Shown: positions 3,480 to 22,141 of the stretch, one piece after another
Position numbering within the stretch: the first letter of the stretch is position 1
Layout: each line of letters starts with the position of its first letter
From: Alphaproteobacteria bacterium
GTDB lineage: Bacteria > Pseudomonadota > Alphaproteobacteria > JBHICW01
Reading direction: 5' to 3'
DNA: 24,000 nucleotides
Assembly: GCA_046759785.1 (NCBI GenBank)
Contig: JBHICW010000006.1
Span: 1,459 to 25,458, forward strand
Made by a program: the position numbers and the translations under genes
The notes under the pieces: generated by a model
Databases searched by the model: none
What the model saw: the letters and a program-made list of their open reading frames with translations, nothing else
Told to the model about the DNA's origin: nothing

Positions 3480-3495
3480 GACCCTTCCTCACGCC

Positions 3496-3828
3496 TCAAA
3501 CGCCGCCGCCCAGGCCGGCCGCCTCGCTACCCTTGTGGTGGTCGCGTAGGCGGCGCTTGTGGCGGCGCAGCTGCTTCTCCATGTGTCCCGCCGCAGCGCT
3601 GAAACTCTGGTAGATGTCGGTGCCATCGGCGTGACTCTCCATAAAAATTCCCTTGCCCACGCGGACCGAGATACGGATCCGGTAGCCCGGCCCCTCGTGA
3701 GAGAAGGCCACGTGGGCCTCGATGGCGCCGTCAAAGTACTTGCTGACGCCACGGGTGAGCCGTGCCTCTATGCGGCGCTGCAGGTCTTCGCCAATGTCGA
3801 TGTGTTTGCCGGTGACGGTCACAAGCAT
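3496..3828 (-). CDS. hpf: Ribosome hibernation promoting factor / sigma-54 modulation protein, short form (110 aa)
   Basis: MLVTVTGKHIDIGEDLQRRIEARL...YFDGAIEAHVAF...VRVGKGIFMESHADGTDIYQSF..A...EKQLRRHKRRLRDHH matches the HPF/YfiA fold pattern. Canonical position after rpoN. Confidence 0.85.
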   Translation of the reverse strand: MLVTVTGKHIDIGEDLQRRIEARLTRGVSKYFDGAIEAHVAFSHEGPGYRIRISVRVGKGIFMESHADGTDIYQSFSAAAGHMEKQLRRHKRRLRDHHKGSEAAGLGGGV

Positions 3829-3995
3829 GGTCGTTGACGTGCGACCCCGGATGGTTGGTGTTTCGTGGTGCTGCCGCCCATCGCTGCCCTATGTGGCGAC
3901 GGGGCGGCCCGAATGGAAGCGCTCGACCATAACATGATGACCGAAAGACGGCCAGACCACCTGTCAACCCCGCTTGCGACCATCGGCTCCATCCC

Positions 3996-5531: not shown

Positions 5532-5533
5532 GT

Positions 5534-6388: not shown

Positions 6389-6405
6389 GTCGTTCACTCT
6401 CCCCG

Positions 6406-6975
6406 CTAGTTCTCAGACTCCGATCGCCGCGGCACGAACAGGCCCTTCACCCGCTGGCCCGAACTGCCTGAGGCGTAATCTCCTTCGACCCGGGTCAACC
6501 CCGTCACGAGGTTAACCTCAAGCCGCTCGCCGCGGATGACATTCTGACCCCGGGTCAACACGACCGAGCCGAGCAAGTTTATCGTACTGGTCTTGACGTT
6601 GTAGACACCTTTCTCGCCTTGGGCCGTGTCGGCGGGCGACAAGAGCAACACGTTTCCCTGCGCCTCGATGCGCGAAATCGTCGTGCTGCCGTCCTCGCCC
6701 TCGCTGTAGTGGACGGTGAGCCTGTCGGCCTTGAGATGCAAATCGCCCTGCACGGCGTCGACGTTGCCGCGGAAGATCGCGATCCGCTGGTCCTGCTGGA
6801 CCTCCAGGCTGTCCGCGGCGATCTCGATGGGAAGCGTGGTGTCGTGTCGCTCCTTGAGATCGAGCTGGGCGCGCGAGGCGATGCCGCCGAGCGCGAGCCA
6901 GAGGACGACCGCCGAAAACAGGACAAGGGCGCGCACGCAACCGAGCCAGGTCCGGGCTGGCATATGCCTTCGCAC
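6406..6975 (-). CDS. lptA: LPS transport periplasmic protein LptA (OstA-like domain, 189 aa)
   Basis: Signal-like N-terminus followed by an OstA-type repeat pattern: IEIAADSLEVQQDQRIAIFRGNVDAVQGDLHLKADRLTVHY...IEAQGNV. Position is between lptC and lptB. An alternative start is ATG 6963. Confidence 0.8.
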   Translation of the reverse strand: MRRHMPARTWLGCVRALVLFSAVVLWLALGGIASRAQLDLKERHDTTLPIEIAADSLEVQQDQRIAIFRGNVDAVQGDLHLKADRLTVHYSEGEDGSTTISRIEAQGNVLLLSPADTAQGEKGVYNVKTSTINLLGSVVLTRGQNVIRGERLEVNLVTGLTRVEGDYASGSSGQRVKGLFVPRRSESEN

Positions 6976-6980
6976 CGTCG

Positions 6981-7631
6981 TTAGCCTCCCGCCGCGGGGT
7001 AAAGAATTAGTTTCACACGGCCGGTGAAGTATATCCTTTCCCCCTTGTCGACCGCGCGGAAGCCCGCGGCGGTGAGTAGACCCAGAGGCCCCTGGCCCTC
7101 TATGGGAACCTGACCTTCGGCCAGCCCCGCGTTGAAGTCGATCCGCGCGCTCGCGGTGTGCAGCTCATAGCCTTGGTCGGCGTAGAAGCTCACCGCGCCG
7201 TTGAGCTGAAGGGCCTTCGTCTCGTGGTTGAAGACCCCGGAGTCGGCAGTGAGCGCGAGCCAGTCTCCGTTGGCTAGCAAGATGTCGGCCTGAAGCCCTT
7301 TGAGAACGATCCGCTCCGGGTCCGACGGTTCTTGCGTGGCGGTCTCGGCGGTGACCGTGAACGGCTGGTTCTTGCCATCCGTGCCAAGGTACCGGGCGTT
7401 GGTCATGGAGAGCGTGCCGCTCTCGCTCTCCTTGATGTCGGCGAAGGAGATCCCGAGGCCCTCGTCGCGCTCGGTCATGTACGGCCAAGCCACCACAAGG
7501 GCCACGAACACGGCGGCGCTCAGCGGCAACACCAGCTTCATCATGGCGACGAAGCGGCTGTATCGGCGCCTCAGGGCGACGGGGCGGGACCGGACGCGGC
7601 GCGGCCGGGCGAACTGACGAGCGAAGGCCAT
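6981..7631 (-). CDS. lptC: LPS export system protein LptC (216 aa)
   Basis: Basic N-terminus and a single TM helix (LVLPLSAAVFVALVVAW), then a beta-rich periplasmic domain. The stop lies 5 nt before the lptA start. The call rests mainly on topology and synteny. Confidence 0.7.
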   Translation of the reverse strand: MAFARQFARPRRVRSRPVALRRRYSRFVAMMKLVLPLSAAVFVALVVAWPYMTERDEGLGISFADIKESESGTLSMTNARYLGTDGKNQPFTVTAETATQEPSDPERIVLKGLQADILLANGDWLALTADSGVFNHETKALQLNGAVSFYADQGYELHTASARIDFNAGLAEGQVPIEGQGPLGLLTAAGFRAVDKGERIYFTGRVKLILYPAAGG

Positions 7632-7852
7632 CGCCTCTGCTCAAACTCCTTGGGCGGCAGCCGAAGCCGCCGTGGCGACCGGGCGCCGAAGGCGGCGGAC
7701 GGAGCGGTGCAGTCGATTGCCCGCACGGCGTCCGACGGGCCGGGAACGGGCCCAACCGGCTTCGAAGACCATCGTCCAAACCTTCCGAAGTAAGACGGGC
7801 TGGGCACAAGCGCGGTTCTTCGGCACCGACGGATTATGGCGGCCCACCGAAT

Positions 7853-7896: not shown

Positions 7897-10557
7897 CTAG
7901 TCGAAATCGCGAAGGCCACCCCCGCCGCCCTCGCCGGCGAGGCTGGCGACGGCGGCCTGCAGGGCATGGGCGATCTTGGCCTCGGCACTCTGGCCCCGGC
8001 CTGAGGCCTCGAGCGCCTGGGGCTCGAGCGGCGCACCGAAGATGATACGCAAGGGCCTGAGCCGGGGGAGGCGCCGGCCCCTGGGCAGGGCCTCGAACGT
8101 GCCGCGGATCACCGCCGGCACCGCCACCGCGCCCGTCTCCTTCACGAGCCGCCCCACCCCGGGGAGGAATGGCTGGAGCCTTCCGTCGGGCGAGCGCCAC
8201 TCCTCGGGGAACCAGACCAGGAGCTTACCCCGCCGCAGCACCTCCACCCCCACGGCGAGGCTCGCGCCAGGTGTGCGGTCGTCGACCGGGAAGACGCGCG
8301 CCGCCCGGGCGACGAGCCGCCGCGACCGGCCGGAGAACATCCGTTGGGCGTCGCCGCCCCAGTGTATGCGCCGCGTTTGCCGCCAGGGGAGCGCCGCGGC
8401 GACGGCGAAGGTGTCGAGGTCGCTTGTGTGGTTTGAGGCGAGGAGCAGCGGGCCATCCGGCTCGGGCAGCCGGTCCAGCCCCTCCACCTTGAGGCCGAAG
8501 AGACCACGGATCAGCGCCCGGTTCAACAGGTAGAGGGCGAAGCCGAACGCCCTGAGCCCCGGCCCCGGCGGCGCGAGCCAGTCCCTCTCGACCGGCGCGC
8601 CGGCCGGCGCCGCTTCGCCCTCGCCCGCCGCCTCCGCGGCCCGGAGGAGGTCGCGCAGCGTCATCACGCTCGCCAGCGCTTCCTCGCTGAGCTTGACGCC
8701 CGTCCGCTCCTCCATCTCGAGGCTTAAGCTTACCCAGGCGAGCGAGTCGACACCCAAGTCGAGCTGCGGGCTCACATCGAGGGTGAGCCTCTTGTTGGGG
8801 AATCTCGTCTCAACCCACGCCCACACCCGGCGCGCGCGCGGCGACTTGAAGAGGGCCCGGTCCAATTCGGTCAGAGGTGCCTCCGGCGGCCGCCCCTCAC
8901 CCTTAGCGGCACGCTCGTAGACGCCCAAGAGCTCGTGGCGTTGGTACTTGCCGAGGCGCGTCCTGGGCAGGGTCTCGCGCGTCAAGGCGTAGCCCGACAC
9001 CCGCTGGTAGGGCCGAAGCCGCCGTGAAAGCTCGGCCAGCGTCACCCGGATCAGGTCGTCGATGCGACCTGTTCCGGCGTCTCGGATCGCCTCGAGCTCC
9101 GGGACCACGAGCGCCATCAGCGCACCGTCCTTTTTCAGCACCGCTACCTCGCGGATGTACGGGCTCTCCGCGTAGACGGCCTCCACGTCCTCGGGCGCCA
9201 GGTTCTTGCCGCCCGGGAGCACGATCATCTCGTTCGCGCGCCCGGTGACGTAAAGGTAGCCGTCGGCGTCCAGCCGTCCGAGATCCCCGGTGCGAAACCA
9301 GCCGTCCTCGGTGAACGCGGCCCGGTTTGCCGCCGGGTCGTTCCGGTAGCCCTTAAAGACGTTGGGACCGCGGAGCCAGACCTCGCCGGGCTGGCCTTCG
9401 CGGGCGGCGGCGACGCGCACCTCGCCGCCGGGGGCGGGGAGCCCCACCGAGCCTACCCGCGTGCGCCCGCGCGGGTTGAAGGTGGAGATGGAGGCGGTCT
9501 CGACGAGTCCGTAACCGTTCAAGATCTCGAAGCCGAGTCCCTCCAACGCCCGCTCGACCTCGGGCTCGAGCCTGGCACCGCCGCAGGCGAGGAGCTTAAG
9601 CTCCGGGCCCAGCTCCTCATGGAGCCGGTGGAACAGTAGCCGTCCGGCTCTGAGCCGGGCGTAGCGTCGGAGCGCCATGGAGAAGGTGAGGAGGGCGCGG
9701 AACAGGACCAGGGCAGGCCGCCCGCGCGCCTTGAGCTTCGCCTCGACGCCGGCGAGCATCGCCTCGTAGAGCCGCGGCACCCCGACCACGGCCCGCACCT
9801 GCCCCTCCCGGAGCGCCCGCACGATCTCGGGCCCAGTCACGTCCGCCGGGAGCACGATCGTCGCGCCGGCGGCGAGCGGTAGCAGCATGCCGGCGAGGAA
9901 GGGGTAGGAGTGGTGGAGCGGCAGGGGCAACAGAACCCGCTCGGCAGGCGCGATGAAGCGGCCGGCGAGCAGAGTCTCGAGGTTGCTCATGATGTTGCGG
10001 TGGGTGAGCGGCACGCCCTTGGGCGCCCCGGTGGTGCCCGAGGTGTAGAAGAGCGCCGCCGGCTCTTCGGGTCCGGGCTCGGGGAGGCTCTCGGGTGCCT
10101 CCCGGAGAAGGCTGCGCCAGTGCCGCGCCCCCTCCGGCCCCGGCCCGCCGTCGTCGAGAAGGATGGGCTCAAGGCGCTCCGCTCCATCCGTTCCCTGGAG
10201 TGTGGCGAGCTGGGCGCGGGTCGTGAAAATGCGGCGGCACCCACTGTCCGCCAGAACGTGGGTGAGGTGAGAGCCAGCCAGGAGGTCGTCGACCGGCACG
10301 GCGAGCGCCCCCACCGCAAGGAGAGCGAGGCGCGCCAGCACCCACTCGGGCCGGTTGGGGGCGAAGAGGGCGACCGGTTCCCCGGGCTCCACCCCGAGCT
10401 CCTTCAAGCCCCCTGCGAGGCGGGCTGCCTGGTCCCAGAGCTGGTCGTACGACCAGGTCAGGGTCGCCTCTTCGCCCACCGCGATCAGCGCCGGGGCCTC
10501 ACCGCGGGCGGCGACGCTCCGGACGACGAACTGAAGGGTGCCGCTCTCGACCGTCAT
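7897..10557 (-). CDS. Three-domain protein: acyl-AMP/acyl-CoA ligase (ANL), phosphopantetheine carrier domain, 1-acylglycerol-3-phosphate (PlsC/LPLAT) acyltransferase (886 aa)
   Basis: ANL motifs: LFYTSGTTGAPKG (aa 169-181), YGLVETAS, TGDLGRLDADGYLYVTGR, PRTRLGKYQR. Carrier motif LDLGVDSLAWVSLSLEME (Ser605). LPLAT motifs NHTSDLD (H710-X4-D), VFPVDD and FPEEWRSPDG. Confidence 0.8.
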   Translation of the reverse strand: MTVESGTLQFVVRSVAARGEAPALIAVGEEATLTWSYDQLWDQAARLAGGLKELGVEPGEPVALFAPNRPEWVLARLALLAVGALAVPVDDLLAGSHLTHVLADSGCRRIFTTRAQLATLQGTDGAERLEPILLDDGGPGPEGARHWRSLLREAPESLPEPGPEEPAALFYTSGTTGAPKGVPLTHRNIMSNLETLLAGRFIAPAERVLLPLPLHHSYPFLAGMLLPLAAGATIVLPADVTGPEIVRALREGQVRAVVGVPRLYEAMLAGVEAKLKARGRPALVLFRALLTFSMALRRYARLRAGRLLFHRLHEELGPELKLLACGGARLEPEVERALEGLGFEILNGYGLVETASISTFNPRGRTRVGSVGLPAPGGEVRVAAAREGQPGEVWLRGPNVFKGYRNDPAANRAAFTEDGWFRTGDLGRLDADGYLYVTGRANEMIVLPGGKNLAPEDVEAVYAESPYIREVAVLKKDGALMALVVPELEAIRDAGTGRIDDLIRVTLAELSRRLRPYQRVSGYALTRETLPRTRLGKYQRHELLGVYERAAKGEGRPPEAPLTELDRALFKSPRARRVWAWVETRFPNKRLTLDVSPQLDLGVDSLAWVSLSLEMEERTGVKLSEEALASVMTLRDLLRAAEAAGEGEAAPAGAPVERDWLAPPGPGLRAFGFALYLLNRALIRGLFGLKVEGLDRLPEPDGPLLLASNHTSDLDTFAVAAALPWRQTRRIHWGGDAQRMFSGRSRRLVARAARVFPVDDRTPGASLAVGVEVLRRGKLLVWFPEEWRSPDGRLQPFLPGVGRLVKETGAVAVPAVIRGTFEALPRGRRLPRLRPLRIIFGAPLEPQALEASGRGQSAEAKIAHALQAAVASLAGEGGGGGLRDFD

Positions 10558-14629: not shown

Positions 14630-14778
14630 GATAGCGTATCTCCTTGCGCGGCCGCCGGCCTTATAGCCAAGGCGGCAAGCGAGGGCAATGCCCTCGCGCG
14701 GGCTTGTTGGTCTCATGCGCGCTTGGTATAGGGAAAACGACGCTGCGCCGACCGTCTGGCAGGCGGGTGCCGGTAAGT

Positions 14779-15102
14779 ATGGACGAAGGTGGGTTCGAAT
14801 CGGCCGTCGACGCACTGCACCACCGGCTCCCGGGCCGGTTGGAGAGGGCGGACACGGACCTTGAGGTCGGCCTTGAAAGGGGCGTTCTCACCATCGAGCT
14901 GGCTTGGCGGCAAAATTACGTGAACGGCAAGGACGCGCCCAACCGGGAGATGTGGATGGCGTCGCCGGTGAGTGGCGCTAGCCACTTCCCCTGCGGGCCG
15001 GCCGCGGGACGCTGGGTCTGCAAACCGGGAGGCGAAGCTCTCATCGATCTGCTGGCGCGGGAGCTCGAGGCCGCGGCCGGCGCCGAGTTCGACCTTGGCT
15101 AG
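14779..15102 (+). CDS. cyaY: Frataxin-like iron-sulfur cluster assembly protein CyaY (107 aa)
   Basis: [12 protein letters not shown]...[15 protein letters not shown]...[16 protein letters not shown]...[17 protein letters not shown] follows the CyaY/frataxin pattern (GVLTI..., IW(L/M)AS..SG..HF). ATG at 14779; the upstream 45 codons of the track ORF are not conserved-looking. Confidence 0.8.
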
Positions 15103-16993
15103 CGGCGCGTTCCAAGGCCGGGCGAGAGGTGAGCTCGGCGCCGGCCTTGCGGAGGGCGGCGCGGGTCCAAGCGAGCGGCCGGCGAGCCGCGACCTCCGCC
15201 ACCTCCGCCACGTCGTAAGGTTCCTCAGGCCTTACCGGCTTCAGGTGGCTGGCGCCGTGGCGGCGCTGACGGTGGCGGCGGGGACGGTACTGGCGATCGG
15301 CGTGGGGCTGCGCCGCCTCGTCGACGAAGGGTTCGCCAAGGGCGAGGCGGCGCTGTTGGATCAGGCCTTGGTGGCGCTCTTCGCGGTCATCGCGCTGCTC
15401 GCGCTGGCGAGCTATGGGCGGTTCTTTCTCGTCTCCTGGATCGGCGAGCGCCTTGTCGCCGACATCCGGCGTGCCGTGTACGATCACATCATCGGGCTAA
15501 GCCCCAGCTTTTTCGAGATCACCAAGACCGGCGAGGTCCTCTCGCGGCTCACGACCGACACCACTCTCCTACAGGCCGTCATCGGCTCCAGCGCGTCGAC
15601 GGCGCTCAGGAACCTTCTTCTCCTCGTCGGCGGGACGGTAATGCTGGCGATCACGAGCCCGCGGCTCACGGCGCTCGTCTTCGTGATTGTGCCGCTCGTC
15701 ATCCTCCCCATCGTCGTGGTCGGGCGCCGGGTGCGCAGGCTGTCCCGCTTAAGCCAGGATCGCGTGGCCGACGCGGGGGCCCATGTCGAGGAAACCATAA
15801 ACGCTGTCCGCACGGTCCAGGCCTTCGCCCACGAGGACCTCGAGCGCCGCCGTTTCGGGCGCCGGGTGGAGGAGGCCTTCGCCACCGCCGTGCGCCGCGT
15901 GCGTGCGCGGGCCTTGCTCACCGCGCTGGTGATCCTGACCGTCTTCGGGGCGGTTGGGGTGGTACTGTGGATCGGCGGCCACGACGTGCTCGGCGGGCGG
16001 ATCACGGCGGGCGAGCTTTCGGCCTTCGTCTTCTATGCCGTGGTCGTAGCCGGGTCGGTCGGAGCGATCAGCGAGGTCGTCGGGGACCTCCTGCGCGCCG
16101 CCGGCGCGACCGAGCGCCTCGTCGAGCTGCTGGCCACGCGCCCGGTCATCACGGCCCCCGCTCGGCCGAAGGCCCTGCCCGAGCCGGCGCGCGGCGCGGT
16201 GGCTCTGGATGGCGTCACGTTCCGCTACCCGGCGCGGCGGAATCGACCCGCACTGCGGGACTTCACGCTCAGGGTCGAGCCGGGTGAAACGGTCGCGCTC
16301 GTGGGGCCGTCGGGCGCTGGGAAGAGCACCGTCTTCCAGCTTCTCCTCCGTTTCTACGATCCTGACACCGGGACCGTGCGGCTGGACGGGGCGGCCATCC
16401 GCGAGGCGGCGCCCGAGGCGGTGCGCGCCCGGATCGCGGTGGTCCCGCAGGATCCGGTTATCTTCGCGGCCGACGCGTGGGACAACATCCGCTACGGCCG
16501 GCCCGGGGCGTCCGACGCCGAGGTGCGCGCCGCCGCCGAGGCGGCCGCGGCGAGTGAGTTCCTCGACCGCCTGCCGCAGGCGTTCGCAACCTTCCTGGGC
16601 GAGCGCGGGGTGCGTCTCTCCGGCGGCCAGCGCCAGCGGATCGCGATCGCGCGGGCGATCTTGCGAAACGCGCCAATCCTTCTGCTCGACGAGGCGACGA
16701 GCGCGCTCGATGCTGAAAGCGAGCGCGTGGTGCAGGCGGCGCTCGAGACGCTCATGAAGGGCCGGACGACGATCGTCATCGCCCACCGGCTCGCCACCGT
16801 GCTGAAGGCGGACCGCATCGTCGTCATGGATGCGGGCCGGACCGTGGCCACCGGCACGCACGGCGAGCTCATCGCCCAAGGCGGCCTTTATGCCCGCCTT
16901 GCCGCGCTCCAGTTCGATACCGACCGCGCTTTGAGAGGCGAGGACGAGCCGGGCGCCGCCGAGGCCGGGTCATCGCGGCTGTCGGCGGAATAG
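15095..16993 (+). CDS. ABC exporter, fused permease/ATPase (ABCB / MsbA-like half-transporter)
   Basis: N-terminal LRHVVRFLRPYRLQVAGAVAALTVAAG followed by six predicted TM segments. NBD motifs: GPSGAGKST, LSGGQRQRIAIARAIL, LLLDEATSALD, IAHRL. The start is unresolved. Between 15098 and the conserved N-terminus there is no in-frame ATG, GTG or TTG. The candidates are therefore TTG 15095 (8-nt overlap with cyaY) and GTG 14972 (131-nt overlap). Confidence 0.85.
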   Translation: MASGAFQGRARGELGAGLAEGGAGPSERPASRDLRHLRHVVRFLRPYRLQVAGAVAALTVAAGTVLAIGVGLRRLVDEGFAKGEAALLDQALVALFAVIALLALASYGRFFLVSWIGERLVADIRRAVYDHIIGLSPSFFEITKTGEVLSRLTTDTTLLQAVIGSSASTALRNLLLLVGGTVMLAITSPRLTALVFVIVPLVILPIVVVGRRVRRLSRLSQDRVADAGAHVEETINAVRTVQAFAHEDLERRRFGRRVEEAFATAVRRVRARALLTALVILTVFGAVGVVLWIGGHDVLGGRITAGELSAFVFYAVVVAGSVGAISEVVGDLLRAAGATERLVELLATRPVITAPARPKALPEPARGAVALDGVTFRYPARRNRPALRDFTLRVEPGETVALVGPSGAGKSTVFQLLLRFYDPDTGTVRLDGAAIREAAPEAVRARIAVVPQDPVIFAADAWDNIRYGRPGASDAEVRAAAEAAAASEFLDRLPQAFATFLGERGVRLSGGQRQRIAIARAILRNAPILLLDEATSALDAESERVVQAALETLMKGRTTIVIAHRLATVLKADRIVVMDAGRTVATGTHGELIAQGGLYARLAALQFDTDRALRGEDEPGAAEAGSSRLSAE

Positions 16994-17127: not shown

Positions 17128-18552
17128 TCAGCGCTGGGTGAGCTTTAGCTCGATGCGTCGGTTGCGGCGGAAGGCGATCTCGTCGTCGCGAGCGTCGAGG
17201 GGCTGGAACGCGCCGAACCCGGTCGCGGCCAACCGCTCGGGCGGGACCCCGTGGTCGATCAGGAAACGCACGACCGAGATCGCCCGGGCGGTCGACAGCT
17301 CCCAGTTGGAGGGGAATTGGAAGGTCTGGATCGGCCTACGGTCGGTGTGCCCGTCGACGCGCAGGGTCCAGGGGAGGTCGGCGGGGATCTCTTGCGCGAT
17401 CTCCAAGAGCGTTGCGGCAAGGGCCGCGAGCTGGATCATGCCGGGCTCCTCCAGCTCGGCAGAGCCCGAAGCGAAGAGCACTTCCGACTGGAAGACGAAA
17501 CGGTCGCCGACCACGCGGATGTCCGGCCGGTCGCCCAGGACTTCGCGCAAGCGGCCGAAGAACTCCGAGCGGTACCGCTCCAGTTCTTCGACCTTGCCGG
17601 CGAGGGCGATATTGAGGCGCTGGCCGAGGTCCGCGATGATGACCTTCTGCTCCTCGTCCTTGGCCTCGGCCGCCTCGAGGGCGGCGTTGAGTGCCGCAAG
17701 CTGTTGGCGCAGGGCGGCTATCTGCCGGTTTAAGAGTTCGAGCTGTCTTTCCGCCTCGCTGGAAATCTTCCGCTCCTCTGTGAGGTCCCGGTCGCTCTGC
17801 TCGAGGAGGTTCACGACCTCGGCTAGCTGGATTTCCCTTTCCTCCAGCTGCGTCTGGGCCAGCGCCGTGCGCTCCTCCTCCTCCGCGACGCGCGTCTCGA
17901 GCTCGGCCGAGCTGTCGCGCAGCGCGGTGAAGTCCTTTTCGAGCCTCGCCGTCTTGTCCTGACTCTCGGCGAGCGAGGCCGCCATCTGGCTCACCTGGGC
18001 CTCGAGCTCGGCGCGGACCTGCTTGAGCGCCGTGATGTCGCGGCGGAGCCTCTCGATCTCAATGAGCCTTATCTTAAGTGTGTCCTCGCCCACCTCGATC
18101 TCGGTCAGCGCCTGGTCGAGCCGCGTCTTGGTGTCGGCGGCCGCGGCCTCGGCCCCTTCGGCGCGCTCAGTGAGCGTTGCGATCTCTTCCTCCAGGGTCT
18201 GGAGCCTCAGGGTCAGCGTCTCCCGTTCCCCGAAGAGGTTGGCGAGCTGTGCGCTCAGCTCGTCGCGCTCTTCCGTTGAGCGCTGAAGCTCGGCCGAAAG
18301 CTGCGCCATGCTGAGGCGGAGATCGGCGTTCGCCTCGCGCTCGAGAGAGAGCTGCTCCGCAAGCTCGTTGACCTGCCGCTGGAGCTGTCCCAGGGCTTGG
18401 TTTTGCCCCGTCAGGGTGTATCTCAGGAAGAAATCCGCCAGCATGAAGGCCACCAGCAGGAAGATGATGACCATGAGGAGGGCGGCCAGGGCGTCGACGA
18501 ACCCGACCCAGATGTCGCTGGTGCGCGCGGCACGACGAGAGGGGAGGGCCAT
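17128..18552 (-). CDS. MotB-like stator subunit: N-terminal TM helix with conserved Asp, ~300-aa coiled coil, C-terminal OmpA/MotB peptidoglycan-binding domain (474 aa)
   Basis: TM segment IWVGFVDALAALLMVIIFLLV carries an Asp placed as in MotB, ExbD and TolR. A heptad-rich Q/E/L/A region spans about aa 45-330. OmpA-like C-terminus: FQSEVLFASGSAEL...LRVDGHTD...SNWELSTARAISVVRFL...NRRIELKL. Confidence 0.8.
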   Translation of the reverse strand: MALPSRRAARTSDIWVGFVDALAALLMVIIFLLVAFMLADFFLRYTLTGQNQALGQLQRQVNELAEQLSLEREANADLRLSMAQLSAELQRSTEERDELSAQLANLFGERETLTLRLQTLEEEIATLTERAEGAEAAAADTKTRLDQALTEIEVGEDTLKIRLIEIERLRRDITALKQVRAELEAQVSQMAASLAESQDKTARLEKDFTALRDSSAELETRVAEEEERTALAQTQLEEREIQLAEVVNLLEQSDRDLTEERKISSEAERQLELLNRQIAALRQQLAALNAALEAAEAKDEEQKVIIADLGQRLNIALAGKVEELERYRSEFFGRLREVLGDRPDIRVVGDRFVFQSEVLFASGSAELEEPGMIQLAALAATLLEIAQEIPADLPWTLRVDGHTDRRPIQTFQFPSNWELSTARAISVVRFLIDHGVPPERLAATGFGAFQPLDARDDEIAFRRNRRIELKLTQR

Positions 18553-18564
18553 GGGACGGTCGAG

Positions 18565-19710
18565 CTAGTGTCGCTTCGTCTCGTTGGCGGCGGCAATCGT
18601 GCGGGCGAGTAGCTTGATCTCGCTGCGGAGCTCCTCGACCATCTGGGTCCGCCCCGAGACGGTTTCCTCCAGAAGCCGCATCATGCAGACGTCGATGTTG
18701 CGGATGTGGGCGCGGCTCGCGTCGTCGATCCCGGCCTCGTCCCGGCCGGAGATCTCGCTGAGCTTCTGGAGCAGCGGCTTCATGCTCATCTGGCTCTCCC
18801 CGAGCTTCATCATGAGCTGCTGCTCCGTCCGCATCTGGTCGGAGAGGGTGGCGAGCTTCTCGGTGAGCTGCTGGAGGTTCGCATTCGCCGCCATGCGGCC
18901 CTCCTCGCCGCGGGCGAGGGTCCGCTGCAGGTTCTCGAGGCTGTCGGCCGTCTGCTCGAGGAGGGCGCTCACATAGGCCGGGATCGACGGGTCACCCTCG
19001 CCGATCGTCGGAAGGCCGCTCGACAGGCGGGTGAGGCTCGACAGCCAGTCCTCCAGCTCGTTGTAGAAGCGGTTCTGCGCCTGGCTCGCCTGGAGGTCCA
19101 GGAAGCCGAGGAGGAGCGAGCCGGCGAGTCCGAAGAGCGACGAGCTGAACGCCGTGCCCATGCCGCCGAGAGGTGCCGTGAGCCCCTCTTTCAGGCTGCC
19201 GAAGATGTCCGCCACGTTGCCCTCGCCAGCCGAGAGCCCCCCGACCACGTCGCCCACCGAGTAGATCGTCTGCAAGAGGCCCCAGAAGGTTCCCAGCAGC
19301 CCGAGGAAGATGAGGAGCCCGATCAGATAGCGCGAAATGTCGCGCGATTCGTCGAGACGCGCGCTGATCCCGTCGAGAAGCGAGCGCATCGAGATCGCCG
19401 ACAGCGACAGCCCGCCCGCTCGCTCGCCGAGCATGGTCGCCATGGGCGCCAACAGCCGCGGGGGCCGCTGCACCGACAGGCCCGGTTGGCTCCGCCGGAA
19501 GGTCTCGATCCACTTGACCTCGGGGTAGAGCATGGCGACTTGGCGGAAGATGTAAATCACCCCCAGCGCCAGGACACCCAGGATCACGCCGTTGATCACG
19601 GCGTTGGCCATGAAGAACTGGCTGAGCGTGGCGAAGAAAGCCGCCGCGACCAGCAGCACGATCACCAGGAAGCCCAGCATGCGATAGAGAAAGACCTGCG
19701 GGCGACTCAT
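18565..19710 (-). CDS. MotA/TolQ/ExbB-family proton-channel protein with ~165-aa helical cytoplasmic tail (381 aa)
   Basis: Two N-terminal TM helices. Then LIGLLIFLGLLGTFWGLLQTI and GMGTAFSSSLFGLAGSLLLGFL, which is the MotA_ExbB core pattern (LGLLGT..G ... AF..T..GL). The C-terminus is predicted helical or coiled. The stop lies 12 nt before the MotB-like start. Confidence 0.8.
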   Translation of the reverse strand: MSRPQVFLYRMLGFLVIVLLVAAAFFATLSQFFMANAVINGVILGVLALGVIYIFRQVAMLYPEVKWIETFRRSQPGLSVQRPPRLLAPMATMLGERAGGLSLSAISMRSLLDGISARLDESRDISRYLIGLLIFLGLLGTFWGLLQTIYSVGDVVGGLSAGEGNVADIFGSLKEGLTAPLGGMGTAFSSSLFGLAGSLLLGFLDLQASQAQNRFYNELEDWLSSLTRLSSGLPTIGEGDPSIPAYVSALLEQTADSLENLQRTLARGEEGRMAANANLQQLTEKLATLSDQMRTEQQLMMKLGESQMSMKPLLQKLSEISGRDEAGIDDASRAHIRNIDVCMMRLLEETVSGRTQMVEELRSEIKLLARTIAAANETKRH

Positions 19711-19749
19711 TGTGGGACCTCTATCCGCGTGCTTGAGGCCATGCCGCCG

Positions 19750-20652
19750 TCACCGGGGCAGCAGGAAGATGTCGACCCGGTCGGGCGGCCCGCCTTCCGA
19801 CTTGTTGCCGAGCGCACGGACATCGATGCGGGTGCTCCGCACACCCTGGTCAAGGAGGAACGCACGAACCGAAAGCGCGCGCGACAACGACAGACGCCGG
19901 GCCGCGCTCACGGTTCCGGACGTCCCGCCTGCATAGGCCTTGAGCTGCGCGCGGGCAACGTCGCTGGTCGCGAACTTCGCCGCCAGGGCCTTGAGCTCGG
20001 GCTTGACTGCCTCAGGGACCTCCGTCTCGCTGCCGTCGAACCCGATGCGAAGGAGACGCCCTGGCTTGCTCACGTCGAAGTCGACCGAGGGCGGCAGCGC
20101 GGCCACCGCGGTCTGCGTCGCGCTGGCGGCCCGGGTGGGCTCCGGGAGCGGGGTCGGCGCAGGCGGAGGCGGCTCGGGCGTGGCCGCCGCCGGGGCGGGG
20201 ACGGCTGTATCGGTCGGCTCCGGCTCCGGGAGCGGCGTCGGTACGACGACCGTTCCGGAGGCAGGGGCCAGTGCCCCGAGCGCCGCCTCCTCCGATGGCG
20301 GAATGAGCTTGATGGGCGCCAGGCTTGGAGGCGACGTCCCGGGCACGAGCAGCCACCTCGGGTCGCCGCGGGTCAGCACATCGGCATAGGGTGACGGCTG
20401 ACCCAGGGTATCGAGAACGTCCAAATTAACTTCGACGGCCGGCAGGCGGCTGCCACCGATGATCACCGTCTCCTGCGCGTCGCCCGTGGACGGCCAGCCA
20501 CCTGCGGCAACGGCCAGTGTCGCCGCCAGAAGGGCGCATGAGGGACGCGTCGGCGCCCGCGTGCGCCGCCTAATCCAAGCAGCCACGAAAACTCTTCGGT
20601 CTCTTCGGGTTCGGGCCCGTGAGTTCAGTCGCTTCCAGTGCTGCGGCACCAT
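19750..20652 (-). CDS. Exported protein with Pro-rich linker and C-terminal OmpA-like domain
   Basis: Signal-like CALLAATLAVAAGGWPSTGDA. Pro/Glu/Thr linker with PTPLPEP duplicated. C-terminus ARRLSLSRALSVRAFLLDQGVRSTRIDVRALGN resembles the OmpA_C peptidoglycan-binding helix. Start is uncertain among TTG 20676, ATG 20652 and GTG 20586. Confidence 0.6.
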   Translation of the reverse strand: MVPQHWKRLNSRARTRRDRRVFVAAWIRRRTRAPTRPSCALLAATLAVAAGGWPSTGDAQETVIIGGSRLPAVEVNLDVLDTLGQPSPYADVLTRGDPRWLLVPGTSPPSLAPIKLIPPSEEAALGALAPASGTVVVPTPLPEPEPTDTAVPAPAAATPEPPPPAPTPLPEPTRAASATQTAVAALPPSVDFDVSKPGRLLRIGFDGSETEVPEAVKPELKALAAKFATSDVARAQLKAYAGGTSGTVSAARRLSLSRALSVRAFLLDQGVRSTRIDVRALGNKSEGGPPDRVDIFLLPR

Positions 20653-20739
20653 ACCGTAGGTACGTCTTGAGAACAACCGGTTTGGGCGGAGACCGGCGTG
20701 CCGGGGAGGGGTCGGCGAGGCCAGGGTGGGCCTGCTCGC

Positions 20740-21561
20740 CTATGGCCGGCCGGCGGCGCCCGCAGCCCTTTCTTCCCGGCGGACCAGCCTCAGCAACTGG
20801 GGATGCAGGGTGGGGTTCGCGGCGAGAACGCCGCCCGTGCCCAAGACGTCGTCGCCGCCCTCGAGGTCGGTCACATAGCCGCCCGCCTCGCGCACGAGGA
20901 GAATTCCGGCCGCCAGGTCCCACGGGGCGAGGCCAGCCTGCCAGAACCCGTCGAACCGTCCGGCGCTGACGTAGGCGAGATCGAGGGAGGCGGAGCCGAA
21001 GCGGCGCACCCCGACGGTCTCGGCGGCCACGCCCTCCAAGTGGATCAGGAGGTCGGGCCGTTCGCCGGCGCGCCGCCCCGGTTTGCCGACGGCGACCACG
21101 GCGTCGGCCAGCGTCCGGCGCGCGGAGACCCTGAGACGCCGGTCGTTGAGGTACGCGCCGACGCCTTGCTCGGCCCGGAAGAGCTCGTCGCGGAGCGGGT
21201 CGTAGACCACGCCCGCGACGATCTGGCGGTCCCGCTCGAGCGCGATTGAGATCGCGAAGTGGGGGATGCCGTGGAGGAAGTTGATCGTCCCGTCCAGGGG
21301 GTCGACGATCCAGCGCCGCCGGGGGTCACCGCCCTCGATGGTTCCGCTCTCTTCGAGGAGGAAGCCGAAGCCGGGACGAGCCCTGGACAGTTCGGCGTGC
21401 AAGACTTTCTCTGCCTGGAGGTCGGCGGCGGTCACGAAGTTTCTCGGCCCCTTCAGGGAGACCTGGAGGTTCTCCACCTCCCCGAAGTCCCGGATCAGCC
21501 CGCGCGCCGCCTTGTAGGCGGCCCCCGCCATGACCGTGATCAGGGCGGACCGGCTGGCCAC
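20740..21561 (-). CDS. suhB: Inositol monophosphatase family protein (SuhB-like, 273 aa)
   Basis: IMPase motifs: FLLEESG, WIVDPLDGTINFLHGIPHFAISIAL, WDLAAGILLVREAGG. Confidence 0.85.
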   Translation of the reverse strand: MASRSALITVMAGAAYKAARGLIRDFGEVENLQVSLKGPRNFVTAADLQAEKVLHAELSRARPGFGFLLEESGTIEGGDPRRRWIVDPLDGTINFLHGIPHFAISIALERDRQIVAGVVYDPLRDELFRAEQGVGAYLNDRRLRVSARRTLADAVVAVGKPGRRAGERPDLLIHLEGVAAETVGVRRFGSASLDLAYVSAGRFDGFWQAGLAPWDLAAGILLVREAGGYVTDLEGGDDVLGTGGVLAANPTLHPQLLRLVRREERAAGAAGRP

Positions 21562-21574: not shown

Positions 21575-22141
21575 TCAGTCCCTGGCGCGTTCGCGGTAGG
21601 TGCCGTCGGCGGTATTGACGACGATCCGCTTCCCGGGCTCGACGAACGGCGGCACCATCACACGCACTCCGTTGTCGAGCTGGGCCGGCTTGAAGGAAGA
21701 GGCGGCCGTCTGTCCCCTCACGACCGCCTCCGTGTCGACGACCGTCGCCACCACGGTCTCGGGGAGCAAGACGGTGATGGGTGTGCCCTCGTGGCTTTCG
21801 ATCGTGACCTCCATCCCCTCCTGGAGAAACACGGCCTGCTCTCCCACCATCTCGCGGTCCACCCCAATCTGGTCGTACGTCTCGGTGTCCATGAACACGA
21901 AGCCGTCGTTCTCCGCGTAAAGATACTGGTAGGGCCGCTGGTCGAGGCGCACGCGCTCCACGCTCTCGGAGGAGCGGAACCGCTCATTGAGCTTGGTTCC
22001 GTCGCGGATGTCCTTGAGCTCGACCTGCATGTACGCCCCACCCTTGCCCGGCTGGGTGTGCTGCACGCGGGTGGCGAGCATGAGCCGACCCCTGTGCTCG
22101 ATGACGTTCCCGGGACGAATGTCGTTGCCGCTGATCTTCAT
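21575..22141 (-). CDS. efp: Translation elongation factor P (188 aa)
   Basis: MKISGNDIRPGNVIEHRGRLMLATRVQHTQPGKGGAYMQVELKDIRDGTK... is the full EF-P pattern, including the PGKGGA loop. ATG at 22141. The 296-aa track ORF over-extends into thiE in another frame. Confidence 0.95.
   Translation of the reverse strand: MKISGNDIRPGNVIEHRGRLMLATRVQHTQPGKGGAYMQVELKDIRDGTKLNERFRSSESVERVRLDQRPYQYLYAENDGFVFMDTETYDQIGVDREMVGEQAVFLQEGMEVTIESHEGTPITVLLPETVVATVVDTEAVVRGQTAASSFKPAQLDNGVRVMVPPFVEPGKRIVVNTADGTYRERARD

What the first reader, a model, noticed from the sequence alone, without database searches (positions are those of the whole stretch)
17128..20676. Orphan three-gene stator-like (MotA/MotB-type) module with a ~300-aa coiled coil in the B subunit and a helical tail on the A subunit
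Three co-directional genes are separated by gaps of only 39 and 12 nt. Gene 1 is an exported Pro-rich protein with an OmpA-like C-terminus. Gene 2 is a MotA/ExbB/TolQ-type 4-TM channel protein with an extra helical cytoplasmic tail of about 165 aa. Gene 3 is MotB-like. Its TM helix keeps the conserved proton-binding Asp (FVDALAALLMV), and it has a canonical OmpA/MotB peptidoglycan-binding domain. A heptad-rich coiled coil of about 300 aa is inserted between the two. No flagellar, Tol-Pal (tolA/tolB/pal), TonB/ExbD or gliding genes are adjacent. The module therefore looks like a distinct PMF-driven 5:2-type motor of unknown output. A tailed A subunit plus a PG-anchored B subunit recalls ZorA/ZorB of the Zorya anti-phage system. 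However, there are no ZorC/D/E-like partners, and the flanking genes are housekeeping (ABC exporter, suhB, efp). That context argues for a conserved envelope function instead. A fully extended 300-aa coiled coil would be about 45 nm, longer than a typical periplasm, so a folded or lateral arrangement is implied.
Basis: partly seen in the sequence, partly recalled or inferred. Interest (0 to 1): 0.65.

Follow-up and report, generated by a model that had tools for sequence, protein, structure and literature searches.

The report
Conserved Zorya-like envelope motor with periplasmic rod
The genes encode an uncharacterised, vertically inherited alphaproteobacterial relative of the proton-driven MotAB/ZorAB "5:2" motors; its wall-anchoring subunit carries a periplasmic coiled-coil rod whose length varies from about 22 to 105 nm in whole heptad steps, and what the machine drives is still unknown.

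Summary
Three co-directional minus-strand genes lie 39 and 12 nt apart. They encode an exported Pro-rich OmpA-like protein (g1), a 4-TM MotA/ExbB/TolQ/ZorA-fold protein with a ~175-aa helical tail (A), and a MotB-like protein (B) with TM Asp20, a ~285-aa coiled coil and a canonical PG-binding domain.

The conserved unit is the A-B pair. It was adjacent in 80/80 loci and is also present in Rhizobiaceae, Sneathiella and an AT-rich lineage, always among the same housekeeping neighbours (efp, suhB, ABC exporter, rpmE). No relatives turned up in phage records or viral contigs, and the only plasmid-database hits are 3.5-4.6 Mb replicons. g1 is an accessory, present in 56/73 loci and absent in Rhizobiaceae.

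A is closest to ZorA by sequence profile. It matches no NCBIfam MotA, TolQ, ExbB or PomA model.

New finding: the distance from the B Asp to the PG-binding module ranges from 169 to 729 residues, yet 21 of 28 distinct lengths share one residue class mod 7. That indicates one continuous parallel coiled coil, too long to stand upright in the periplasm.

The "motA/motB" genes studied in non-flagellated Komagataeibacter hansenii belong to this family. They are non-essential and affect cell length.

Verdict: a new variant of a known kind; the output is unknown.

The parts
19750..20676 (-). g1: longest ORF (TTG start) of the exported accessory protein. Likelier starts are ATG 20652 or GTG 20586. The stop codon is 19750-19752.
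   Evidence: A g1-like ORF lies directly upstream of A in 56/73 related loci.
20476..20676 (-). g1 N-terminal region with a Sec signal peptide (...ALLAATLAVAAGGWPSTGDA|QE); predicted cleavage after Ala67.
   Evidence: Homologues show short canonical signal peptides ending AxA, followed by Q.
20401..20475 (-). g1 mature N-terminal conserved motif QETVIIGGSRLPAVEVNLDVLDTLG (residues 68-92).
   Evidence: Conserved directly after the cleavage site in 17 homologues found by BLAST and 26 found by HMM.
20062..20400 (-). g1 variable Pro-rich linker (residues 93-205, including EPPPPAP).
   Evidence: Not conserved in sequence or length.
19753..20061 (-). g1 degenerate OmpA-like domain (residues 206-308).
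   Evidence: Pfam OmpA at 32.7 bits. The alignment shows GHTD replaced by AYAG and Asn replaced by Ala; the Arg of the LSxxRA motif is kept.
18565..19710 (-). A subunit gene (381 aa), with a MotA/ExbB/TolQ/ZorA fold.
   Evidence: More than 8000 homologues.
19096..19689 (-). A membrane core (residues 8-205): TM1, TM2, a cytoplasmic segment with the conserved RLDESRDxSRY motif, TM3 (FLGLLGTFWGL), a periplasmic loop, and TM4 (GMGTAFSSSLFGLAGSL).
   Evidence: AF2 pLDDT is 80-91 in the TM helices. Foldseek hits TolQ, ExbB and ZorA at probability 1.0. Invariant columns are listed.
19288..19290 (-). A Thr141, the predicted ion-pathway Thr of TM3.
   Evidence: It aligns with the Thr of TolQ YIGLFGTVWGI and ExbB FVGLFGTVWGI and with Shewanella ZorA GVIGTFMGL. 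It is invariant in 104 sequences.
18568..19095 (-). A cytoplasmic tail (residues 206-381): membrane-proximal helix, flexible G/P linker at ~229-245, then helices 246-323 and 330-380.
   Evidence: AF2. The ZorA1 HMM match extends to residue 318. The C-terminal ~50 aa are strongly conserved within close relatives.
17128..18552 (-). B subunit gene (474 aa), a member of NCBIfam PRK09039.
   Evidence: 472 bits against a 305 cutoff. It is adjacent to A in 80/80 loci.
18427..18510 (-). B transmembrane helix (residues 15-42) carrying the W-x-G-F-V-D motif.
   Evidence: The motif is conserved in all 74 aligned homologue N-termini.
18493..18495 (-). B Asp20 codon (gac), the predicted proton-binding Asp.
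   Evidence: Read directly. Invariant.
17575..18426 (-). B periplasmic coiled coil (residues ~43-326), about 43 nm if straight.
   Evidence: A single heptad register runs throughout. The a/d positions are hydrophobic at 0.69/0.49, against 0.08-0.14 at the other five positions, and the Pro fraction is 0.0001 over 16,112 residues of homologues. Length is heptad-quantised.
17131..17574 (-). B PG-binding module (residues 327-474): conserved RYRSEFFGRLR helix plus a canonical OmpA/MotB domain (GHTD; SNWELSTARA).
   Evidence: Pfam OmpA at 58.5 bits. The best PDB relatives are MotS, MotB and PomB PG-binding domains. The N, L and R positions match the ZorB PG-binding residues N152, L155 and R159.

Best explanation
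A and B form an ion-driven stator-type complex. By homology the stoichiometry is most likely A5B2. The complex belongs to a distinct, vertically inherited alphaproteobacterial family whose nearest characterised relative is the ZorAB core of Zorya.

Proposed mechanism:
1. Protons pass between B-Asp20 and A-Thr141 plus the Ser/Thr residues of TM4.
2. The two B chains leave the A ring as one continuous parallel coiled-coil rod (~43 nm here; ~22 to ~105 nm in relatives). The rod ends in a canonical peptidoglycan-binding dimer.
3. The rod is much longer than the inner-membrane-to-wall gap, so it must bend at the conserved Gly just outside the membrane and lie roughly parallel to the membrane. It then anchors the complex to the wall at a distance.
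4. With B held by the wall, the A ring turns. The output is taken from its conserved cytoplasmic part (the RLDESRD motif and the ~135-aa helical tail), as in MotA and ZorA.

The physiological role is most likely in envelope, pole or division housekeeping, not flagellar rotation or phage defence. g1 is a periplasmic accessory found in many lineages. It probably docks on the complex through its conserved mature N-terminus.

Status of the steps:
- Shown: homology, residue conservation, coil continuity, distribution.
- Inferred: stoichiometry, rotation, lateral orientation, cytoplasmic output, physiological role.
For: Fold and family:
- Foldseek top hits are all 5:2 A subunits: TolQ 8ODT, ExbB 5SV0, and ZorA 8VVN_D (TM-score 0.55 normalised to the target). 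MotA and PomA are weaker.
- 66/66 diverse family members hit the PADLOC ZorA1 and ZorA3 models (best E 1e-15 to 1e-16), whereas 49/66 hit Pfam MotA_ExbB (best 1.7e-6).
- The only membrane-protein hit in the PDB by profile is type I ZorA 8VVN.
- No NCBIfam MotA, TolQ, ExbB or PomA model matches A.

Ion path:
- The Asp is invariant.
- Thr141 is invariant and aligns with TolQ T145 and ExbB T148.

Rod:
- A single heptad register runs through it, there is no Pro, and a/d occupancy is canonical.
- The Asp-to-PGBD distance spans 169-729 residues. 21 of 28 distinct values are 1 mod 7 (binomial P 8e-13), and the rest are offset by +4 or +3.
- Single-heptad steps (169/176, 260/267/274, 302/309/316) fit one parallel coil.

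PG anchor: the GHTD and N..L...R residues are canonical.

Housekeeping character:
- A and B are adjacent in 80/80 loci and share the same efp-suhB / ABC / rpmE neighbours in Rhodospirillales, Rhizobiaceae, Sneathiella and the P0205 lineage.
- There are no phage or viral hits.

Experimental hints from a family member in flagella-less K. hansenii: knock-outs are viable, over-expression gives elongated cells or chains, and GFP fusions form polar foci. Membership is shown by primer-derived termini, MTRPTTY at the MotA N-terminus and EFRLTDR at the MotB C-terminus.
Against: - No multimer model or stoichiometry test could be run, so rotation is inferred by homology only.
- The window's A scores below Pfam's gathering threshold. 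Mean AF2 pLDDT is 73.5, and the loops and linker are poorly modelled.
- Structure search does not separate ZorA from TolQ/ExbB. The ZorA preference rests on HMMs from a defence-only library with no competing MotA-like models.
- Heptad-multiple indels are what any continuous coiled coil would show. They prove continuity, not function.
- The lateral orientation uses the E. coli IM-PG distance of ~9 nm. Alphaproteobacterial periplasm geometry was not examined.
- The K. hansenii data are over-expression phenotypes. A C-terminal GFP on a Sec-exported periplasmic domain is not expected to fluoresce, so the polar foci may be aggregates.
- No cytoplasmic partner for the tail is evident in the conserved neighbourhood.
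Confidence: 0.5

Rival explanations
1. Periplasmic force transducer (Tol/Ton/Gld-like). The energy of the A/B motor is delivered outward through the B rod, with g1 as a Pal/TolB-like partner where present. The target would be the wall or outer membrane, for example to remodel or move along peptidoglycan or to help outer-membrane constriction. The cytoplasmic tail would be only structural.
For: - The most elaborate and variable element is periplasmic.
- g1 is a periplasmic OmpA-like protein encoded 39 nt upstream, and only 2 nt upstream in Sneathiella.
- GldM/PorM set a precedent for a long periplasmic B-type shaft (general knowledge of 5:2 motors; review listed).
- Over-expression in K. hansenii gives chains or filaments, as reported for tolQR over-expression.
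Against: - B ends in a canonical, apparently functional PG-binding domain, as in MotB and ZorB, where B is the anchor and not the output.
- g1 is absent from many lineages that keep A-B.
- The rod length varies fivefold, and g1 linker length does not co-vary with it.
- The cytoplasmic tail of A is conserved across the family.
Confidence: 0.2
2. Non-rotary tether or regulated channel. B is mainly a long structural inner-membrane-to-wall tether, a periplasmic 'cytoskeletal' rod. A is a gated proton channel or chaperone for it, without mechanical output.
For: - The rod dominates the protein and its length evolves freely.
- Knock-outs are viable, with mild morphological effects in K. hansenii.
Against: - The Asp, the Thr and the whole TM core are invariant across orders. 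The A proteins are 66-83% identical among the 120 closest hits in the protein search and 37-57% across more diverse members. That degree of conservation is more than a passive tether would need.
- All characterised relatives with this residue set are motors.
Confidence: 0.1
3. A minimal or novel Zorya-type anti-phage system, in which ZorAB-like sensing is coupled to unknown effectors encoded elsewhere.
For: - The best sequence-profile relatives are ZorA models.
- The only PDB membrane-protein profile hit is ZorA.
- The pairing of a tailed A with a PG-binding B matches Zorya.
Against: - No ZorC, D, E, F or G-like genes are present; all neighbours are housekeeping.
- The chromosomal position is fixed and deeply conserved across alphaproteobacterial orders.
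- Sequence conservation is high.
- It is absent from phage records and 2.9 million viral contigs, and the only 'plasmid' hits are 3.5-4.6 Mb replicons.
- The tail is ~135-175 aa against the ~500 aa that is present in all Zorya types and required in E. coli.
- NCBIfam ZorA_4 scores 16 bits against a 500 cutoff.
Confidence: 0.04
4. An auxiliary flagellar stator, as the database name 'flagellar motor protein MotA' implies.
For: - NCBI names many homologues MotA.
- The PG-binding domain of B is most like MotS, MotB and PomB.
- A has the 4-TM topology of MotA.
Against: - No NCBIfam MotA model matches A, and hhalign probability to E. coli MotA is 10%.
- There is no MotB plug match.
- There are no flagellar neighbours in any locus.
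- The family is present, and was studied, in flagella-less Komagataeibacter.
- A 22-105 nm rod is incompatible with docking on a flagellar basal body as MotB does.
Confidence: 0.03

Closest known systems
ZorAB core of Zorya anti-phage systems (type I; PDB 8VVN, 8QYD)
   Same: - The A subunit is the best sequence-profile relative.
- Both have a TM Thr and a Ser/Thr facing the B Asp.
- In both, the B subunit has a PG-binding OmpA/MotB-type domain with the same N..L...R residues.
- In both, A has an all-helical cytoplasmic tail.
   Different: - ZorA has 3 TM helices and a ~500-aa, 70-nm tail. Here A has 4 TM helices and a ~135-175-aa tail after a flexible linker.
- ZorB's PG-binding domain is fused to the TM helix with no linker. 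Here a 150-700-aa coiled coil intervenes, so the long rod is on the opposite side of the membrane.
- There are no ZorC, D or E effectors.
- The locus is core and syntenic rather than a patchy defence island.
Flagellar stator MotAB/PomAB
   Same: 4-TM A topology, a B subunit with one TM Asp, and a C-terminal PG-binding domain most similar to MotB, MotS and PomB.
   Different: - There is no MotA-family HMM match and no plug motif.
- There is no FliG-interacting loop signature and no flagellar context.
- The family is present in a non-flagellated genus.
- The MotB linker is short and flexible, not a rigid heptad rod.
TolQR-TolA-Pal and ExbBD-TonB
   Same: The best structural superpositions of the A membrane core are with these proteins, and the GLxGTxWG motif is shared. 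They are housekeeping envelope machines. TolA also has a long periplasmic helical domain.
   Different: - TolQ and ExbB have 3 TM helices and no tail.
- TolR and ExbD lack an OmpA-type domain.
- The long helix here is part of B itself, not a separate TolA/TonB-type protein.
- g1 is Sec-cleaved, not membrane-anchored.
- hhalign aligns only 22 columns.
GldLM/PorLM (type IX secretion and gliding motor)
   Same: The B-type subunit forms a long dimeric periplasmic extension from the TM helices of a 5:2 motor.
   Different: GldM and PorM are built from globular domains and reach outer-membrane partners. Here the extension is a pure coiled coil of variable length ending in a wall-binding domain. No sequence relationship was tested or found.
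'MotA/MotB' of Komagataeibacter hansenii (Jacek et al. 2018, 2019; PMC6315621, PMC6570709)
   Same: It is the same family. Evidence: a 348-aa 4-TM A and a 321-aa B with one TM helix plus an OmpA-like domain; primer-derived termini MTRPTTY and EFRLTDR that match family signatures; and the IEFRLTDR C-terminus shared with the Acetobacteraceae loci L048, L049, L054, L058, L062 and L065.
   Different: Those papers treated the pair as motility genes. They did not note the ZorA relationship, the coiled coil or its quantised length, or the conserved synteny. The K. hansenii B is shorter (321 aa).

Membership tests
MotA/ExbB/TolQ/ZorA superfamily (A subunit of 5:2 ion-driven motors) | Sequence match to Pfam PF01618 MotA_ExbB | tested here: inconclusive
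   The window protein scores 18.9 bits against a gathering score of 22.9, with E 0.0014. 49 of 66 diverse family members match at E<0.01, best 1.7e-6.
MotA/ExbB/TolQ/ZorA superfamily (A subunit of 5:2 ion-driven motors) | Characteristic fold of long TM helices extending into the cytoplasm | tested here: met
   The AF2 model (pLDDT 73.5) gives TolQ, ExbB and ZorA chains as all top Foldseek PDB hits, at probability 0.99-1.0 and TM-score up to 0.55.
MotA/ExbB/TolQ/ZorA superfamily (A subunit of 5:2 ion-driven motors) | Conserved Thr in the GLxGTxxG helix and Ser/Thr in the last TM helix, lining the ion path | tested here: met
   T141 is invariant, and T186, S189 and S191 are conserved. T141 aligns to the TolQ and ExbB Thr and to the ZorA motif.
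MotA/ExbB/TolQ/ZorA superfamily (A subunit of 5:2 ion-driven motors) | Adjacent B subunit with a single TM helix carrying an essential Asp | tested here: met
   The B gene lies 12 nt downstream. Asp20 is conserved in all 74 aligned homologue N-termini and in 6 further loci.
MotA/ExbB/TolQ/ZorA superfamily (A subunit of 5:2 ion-driven motors) | A5B2 stoichiometry and ion-driven rotation | not testable with these tools
   No multimer prediction or experiment was available.
Zorya anti-phage system (ZorAB plus effectors) | ZorA-type A subunit by curated model | tested here: inconclusive
   PADLOC ZorA1 gives E 8e-14 but covers only model positions 105-272 of 683. NCBIfam ZorA_4 scores 16.2 bits against a 500 cutoff.
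Zorya anti-phage system (ZorAB plus effectors) | Long (~500 aa, ~70 nm) ZorA cytoplasmic tail, present in all Zorya types | tested here: not met
   The tail here is 176 aa in total, of which ~135 aa are structured helices.
Zorya anti-phage system (ZorAB plus effectors) | ZorB PG-binding domain fused directly to the TM helix | tested here: not met
   About 285 aa of coiled coil lie between the TM helix and the PG-binding domain.
Zorya anti-phage system (ZorAB plus effectors) | Co-encoded soluble effectors (ZorC/D, ZorE, ZorF/G) | tested here: not met
   The neighbours are efp, suhB, thiE, fba, cyaY, an ABC exporter and rpmE. The same holds in related loci.
Zorya anti-phage system (ZorAB plus effectors) | Patchy, mobile, defence-island distribution | tested here: not met
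   Synteny is fixed across orders. No hits were found in phage records or viral contigs. The only 'plasmid' hits are 3.5-4.6 Mb replicons.
Flagellar MotAB/PomAB stator | Match to MotA/PomA family models, and a MotB plug next to the TM helix | tested here: not met
   No NCBIfam MotA or PomA hit for A. hhalign probability to E. coli MotA is 10%. No PF13677 hit for B.
Flagellar MotAB/PomAB stator | Association with flagellar genes and flagellated organisms | tested here: not met
   There are no flagellar neighbours in the window or the loci. The family occurs in Komagataeibacter, which is reported as non-flagellated.
TolQR/ExbBD energisers | TolQ/ExbB family model match, an ExbD/TolR-type B subunit, and a TolA/TonB partner | tested here: not met
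   No NCBIfam TolQ or ExbB hit. hhalign aligns only 22 columns, at probability 45-54%. B carries an OmpA domain instead. g1 has a cleaved signal peptide, not a TonB/TolA-type anchor.
NCBIfam PRK09039 'peptidoglycan-binding protein' (B subunit) | Score above the curated cutoff of an equivalog model | tested here: met
   NF006543 scores 472 bits against a 305 cutoff, NF006544 388.5 against 362, and NF006545 373.4 against 372. The family name carries no functional information.

The most novel reading that the evidence does not exclude
This is a housekeeping sister (or ancestor-like relative) of Zorya's ZorAB, present as a core gene pair across Alphaproteobacteria. In it the long helical element has moved from the cytoplasmic A tail to the periplasmic B subunit. 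The result would be a proton-driven rotary device tethered to the wall by a 20-100-nm coiled-coil rod lying between inner membrane and peptidoglycan. On this reading it is a previously unrecognised envelope machine that couples wall or periplasm mechanics to a cytoplasmic output affecting cell length, division or polarity. It would also show that Zorya was built on, or gave rise to, a cellular envelope-sensing motor.
Probability: 0.3. Interest if true: 0.8.

Novelty: new variant of a known kind. Interest (0 to 1): 0.62.

Why it matters
Five functional classes of 5:2 ion-driven motors are known: flagellar, Ton, Tol, gliding/T9SS and Zorya. A sixth, housekeeping class would matter for several reasons.

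- It is conserved in model alphaproteobacteria (Sinorhizobium, Rhizobium, Magnetospirillum, Acetobacteraceae), so it would be directly testable by genetics.
- It would bear on where the Zorya sensor came from.
- The heptad-quantised rod is a natural length series (about 22 to 105 nm). It could be used to ask how torque or conformational signals travel along a periplasmic coiled coil, and what occupies the space between inner membrane and wall.
- Thousands of database entries named 'flagellar motor protein MotA' are probably misnamed.
- The cellulose-engineering work in Komagataeibacter has been manipulating this machine without knowing what it is.

Tried and rejected
1. AF2 of A with a shallow alignment (41 sequences, at least 66% identical) gave pLDDT 57.7 and was discarded. 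A 104-sequence alignment from three searches gave 73.5.
2. Direct phmmer of A against the PDB found only coiled-coil noise. The full-length profile was dominated by coiled-coil and apolipoprotein hits, apart from ZorA 8VVN. The TM-only profile gave ZorA at a non-significant E of 1.3.
3. TonB/TolA-like idea for g1 (anchor, Pro-rich spacer, C-terminal domain): rejected, because homologues have cleavable AxA|Q signal peptides.
4. g1 linker length against B rod length: no correlation (Spearman -0.31, P 0.14, n=24).
5. Mobility and defence context: no phage or viral hits. The five 'plasmid' hits are 3.5-4.6 Mb replicons of Sinorhizobium and Shinella.
6. Promoter and terminator scans gave nothing usable in this 68% GC DNA; the terminator-like hits lie inside genes. 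Co-transcription of efp-suhB-g1-A-B therefore remains an inference from spacing.
7. CcfM, the membrane-anchored coiled-coil curvature protein of Magnetospirillum, was considered as a possible identity for B. The primary paper (PMC7749328) is not held. Secondary text describes interactions with the cytoplasmic proteins MamK and MamY, which does not fit a periplasmic coil. The idea was set aside but not formally excluded.
8. Cluster look-ups to extend the taxonomy returned only unnamed alphaproteobacterial MAGs. Presence in Caulobacterales, Rhodobacterales, Sphingomonadales and Rickettsiales remains untested.
9. Literature searches on PRK09039, ZorAB homologues, and stator-like or MotAB-like terms found nothing on this family apart from the Komagataeibacter papers.

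Full report
**What is there.**
The finding covers three minus-strand ORFs: g1 at 19750-20676, A at 18565-19710 and B at 17128-18552. They are separated by 39 and 12 nt. The window is ~68% GC chromosomal DNA. Every other gene I could identify is housekeeping: EIIA-Man, rapZ, rpoN, lptB, lptC-like, an AMP-binding/ACP/acyltransferase, an S41 peptidase, a HAD hydrolase, rpmE, cyaY, an ABC exporter, suhB, efp, thiE and fba. No flagellar, Tol-Pal, Ton or gliding genes are present.

**The A subunit.**
- A (381 aa) has four hydrophobic helices and a long C-terminal helical region.
- Pfam MotA_ExbB matches only weakly: 18.9 bits, below the 22.9 gathering score.
- No NCBIfam MotA, PomA, TolQ or ExbB model matches at E<=0.1. 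The only NCBIfam hit is a faint ZorA_4 match.
- PADLOC ZorA models match clearly. ZorA1 gives E 8e-14 over residues 123-318. All 66 members of a diverse family alignment hit the ZorA1 and ZorA3 models (best 1e-15 to 1e-16), whereas 49/66 hit Pfam MotA_ExbB (best 1.7e-6).
- A family profile searched against all PDB sequences finds one membrane protein, type I ZorA of Shewanella ANA-3 (8VVN), at E 4.5e-4. With a TM-only profile it is still the only membrane-protein hit, but at a non-significant E of 1.3.
- hhalign of the TM profile against E. coli TolQ, ExbB and MotA aligns only the 22-column GLxGTxWG motif for TolQ and ExbB (probability 45-54%). MotA reaches 10%.
- An AF2 model built on 104 sequences (pLDDT 73.5; TM helices 80-91) returns only 5:2-motor A subunits at the top of a Foldseek PDB search. 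TolQ, ExbB and ZorA score equally well (TM-score up to 0.55) and MotA/PomA are weaker.

A therefore has the fold of the superfamily and sits outside the MotA, TolQ and ExbB families. By sequence it is nearest to ZorA. Thr141 (FLGLLGTFWGL) is invariant and aligns with the ion-pathway Thr of TolQ, ExbB and ZorA. TM4 carries the conserved GMGTAFSSSLFGL motif.

**The B subunit.**
- B (474 aa) belongs to NCBIfam PRK09039, 'peptidoglycan-binding protein' (472 bits against a 305 cutoff). That name carries no functional content.
- Its N-terminus is basic and is followed by one TM helix with the motif W-x-G-[FY]-V-D. The Asp (D20 here) is present in all 74 aligned homologue N-termini taken from related loci, and in six further loci.
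- The C-terminal domain is a canonical OmpA/MotB domain. Its closest solved relatives are the MotS, MotB and PomB PG-binding domains. It keeps the GHTD Asp and the N..L...R residues that are required for PG binding in ZorB.

**The rod.**
- Residues ~43-326 lie between the TM helix and the PG-binding module. They contain no proline and keep one heptad register throughout.
- Across 59 homologues (16,112 coil residues), I phased the heptads from the TM Asp. Two heptad positions are hydrophobic (0.69 and 0.49) and the other five are not (0.08-0.14). The Pro frequency is 0.0001.
- The distance from the Asp to the conserved RYRSEFFGRLR helix that opens the PG-binding module varies from 169 to 729 residues.
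- Of 28 distinct distances, 21 are congruent to 1 mod 7. Six are offset by +4 (a stutter) and one by +3 (a stammer). The binomial P is 8e-13 on distinct values, though the sequences are related and so not independent.
- Four loci fetched afterwards as an independent check all fell in the main class.
- Steps of a single heptad (169/176, 190/197, 260/267/274, 302/309/316, 365/372) fit one continuous parallel coiled coil. They do not fit a hairpin, which would need paired insertions.

At 0.1485 nm per residue the periplasmic rod is ~22 nm in the shortest proteins, ~43 nm here and ~105 nm in the longest. The inner-membrane-to-wall distance quoted for E. coli is ~9 nm. The rod therefore cannot stand upright. 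It must bend near the membrane, where a conserved Gly follows the TM helix, and run roughly parallel to the membrane. This last step is inference.

**g1.**
- The window ORF is over-extended at its 5' end. Homologues show short Sec signal peptides cleaved at AxA|Q.
- The mature protein starts with a conserved ~25-aa motif, Q-x-V-I-I-G-G-S-x-x-P-x-V-E-V-N-L-x-V-L-D-x-L-G.
- Next comes a variable Pro-rich linker, and then an OmpA-like domain in which the GHTD Asp and the Asn of the PG site are replaced and a helix is missing.
- A g1-like ORF sits directly upstream of A in 56 of 73 loci with enough flank. It is also present in Sneathiella and two further MAG loci.
- It is absent in 17 loci (in the ones examined, a XerC/D-type recombinase gene or suhB sits there instead). 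It is also absent in S. meliloti, in Rhizobium sp. Root482 and in the AT-rich P0205 lineage.

g1 is a frequent accessory, not part of the obligatory unit.

**Distribution and context.**
- A has more than 8000 hits in the large protein collection. The best 120 are 66-83% identical.
- There are 3022 50%-identity clusters at E<1e-3, of which 619 score below 1e-30.
- In one genome per species, 440 relatives were found using close-relative patterns alone. The 80 loci kept are Rhodospirillales-type genomes: Caenispirillum, Telmatospirillum, Oceanibaculum, Inquilinus, Acidisoma, Magnetospirillum, Terasakiella, Pacificispira and many MAGs.
- A and B are adjacent in all 80 loci. efp-suhB lie upstream in most, and the ABC exporter and rpmE lie downstream in many.
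- The same neighbours surround the pair in S. meliloti (thiE-sel1-suhB-A-B-ABC-rpmE), in Rhizobium sp. Root482, in Sneathiella chungangensis and in a deep AT-rich lineage (rpmE-cyaY-ABC-efp-suhB-A-B).
- No relatives were found in 50,697 phage records or 2.9 million viral contigs. The five 'plasmid' hits are 3.5-4.6 Mb replicons.

This is the pattern of an old, vertically inherited core gene pair, not of a defence system.

**Literature.**
Searches on the family name, on Zorya homologues and on stator-like systems found no description of this family. One search surfaced work on 'motA' (348 aa, 4 TM) and 'motB' (321 aa, one TM plus an OmpA-like domain) of the non-flagellated Komagataeibacter hansenii.

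The published primers encode MotA N-terminus (V/M)TRPTTY and MotB C-terminus EFRLTDR-stop. MTRP... is the dominant N-terminus of the family, and one family representative starts with the identical seven residues. IEFRLTDR is the C-terminus of the six Acetobacteraceae B proteins in my loci. These genes are therefore members of the family.

Reported results:
- Disruptions of motA, motB and motAB are viable and give denser cellulose.
- Over-expression gives elongated cells, chains or filaments, threefold wider colony spreading and looser cellulose.
- C-terminal GFP fusions form polar foci, unipolar in short cells and bipolar in long ones.
- The authors state that the partner receiving the energy is unknown.

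Caveats are my own. These are over-expression effects. In addition, a GFP fused to the Sec-exported end of B should not fluoresce in the periplasm, so the foci may be aggregates.

**How it most likely works.**
- Shown: A and B have every sequence feature of an ion-conducting stator pair. B ends in an apparently competent wall-binding domain. The B helices form one continuous coiled coil of variable, heptad-quantised length. The pair is core and syntenic.
- Inferred by homology: A5B2 stoichiometry and proton-driven rotation of A around wall-anchored B.
- Inferred from geometry: the rod lies laterally and anchors the motor to the wall 20-100 nm away.
- Inferred by analogy with MotA and ZorA, where a wall-anchored B leaves the A cytoplasmic face as the output: the conserved cytoplasmic motif RLDESRDxSRY and the helical tail (helices 246-323 and 330-380 after a flexible linker) carry the output to an unidentified partner.
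- Physiological role: the K. hansenii phenotypes point towards cell length, division, pole or envelope processes.

I give this composite about 0.5. The motor part alone is much more likely than that, and the direction of output and the physiological role much less.

The main rival places the output in the periplasm, in the style of Tol or Gld, with g1 as partner (0.2). A passive tether or channel (0.1), a Zorya-type defence system (0.04) and an auxiliary flagellar stator (0.03) are each contradicted by specific tests listed in the membership table.

**Comparison and novelty.**
It works like a MotAB/ZorAB-type wall-anchored stator. It is not a member of Zorya: the tail length, the TM-to-PGBD fusion, the effectors and the distribution were all tested and not met. 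It is not a member of MotAB or of TolQR/ExbBD either.

It differs from every described 5:2 system in having a rigid periplasmic coiled coil of 150-700 residues inside the B subunit. Relative to Zorya, the long helical element lies on the opposite side of the membrane.

The family exists in databases under uninformative or misleading names, and it has been touched experimentally once under the name MotAB. Its architecture, its relationships and its function have not been described in anything I could search. I class it as a new variant of a known kind, with interest 0.62.

Noticed in passing
window 14740-15102 (+) and 14972-16993 (+): A frataxin-like cyaY (Pfam Frataxin_Cyay, 67 bits) lies just upstream of the ABC exporter and overlaps its listed ORF start, so the exporter's true start is probably downstream of 15102. 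cyaY next to rpmE recurs in distant alphaproteobacterial loci, together with the ABC exporter in L082/L083 and without it in L087.
   Followed up: partly
window 21575-22141 (efp), 20740-21561 (suhB), 20062-20400 (g1 linker): efp and suhB are 13 nt apart and precede g1-A-B on the same strand, an arrangement kept across alphaproteobacterial orders. g1 contains a PPPP run (EPPPPAP), the kind of sequence whose translation depends on EF-P. No terminator or promoter could be called, so co-transcription is untested.
   Followed up: partly
window 18502-18504 (B residue 17 region; motif WVGFVD): The window's B has Val where almost all of the 74 aligned homologues have Pro in the W-P-G-F-V-D motif just before the essential Asp; one homologue (L074) has WPAYVD.
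   Followed up: no
L057 8001-10157: In a Magnetospirillum MAG, A and B read as a single 718-aa ORF. This could be a real fusion, a frameshift or an assembly error; it was not resolved.
   Followed up: no
L010, L012, L013, L015-L021, L023, L025, L028 (upstream of A, about 5300-7830): In the three loci of this MAG clade that were checked (L016, L017, L025), the gene directly upstream of A is a XerC/XerD-type tyrosine recombinase (Phage_integrase plus SAM-like N domain) instead of g1. The tblastn scan detects no efp or suhB in any of these 13 loci.
   Followed up: partly
window 1124-7631 (-): A classic rpoN neighbourhood is present: EIIA-Man-type PTS protein, rapZ, rpoN (3996-5531), lptB (5534-6397) and an lptC-like gene (6981-7631).
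   Followed up: no
window 7897-10557 (-): An 886-aa three-domain protein (AMP-binding, phosphopantetheine attachment site, acyltransferase). This is an Aas-like architecture for lysophospholipid re-acylation, with its own carrier domain.
   Followed up: no
L084 8595-10585: In Sneathiella chungangensis two glycosyltransferase genes (the GT9 heptosyltransferase family and GT4) are inserted between B and the ABC exporter. This is the only locus seen where envelope-biogenesis genes directly follow the pair.
   Followed up: no
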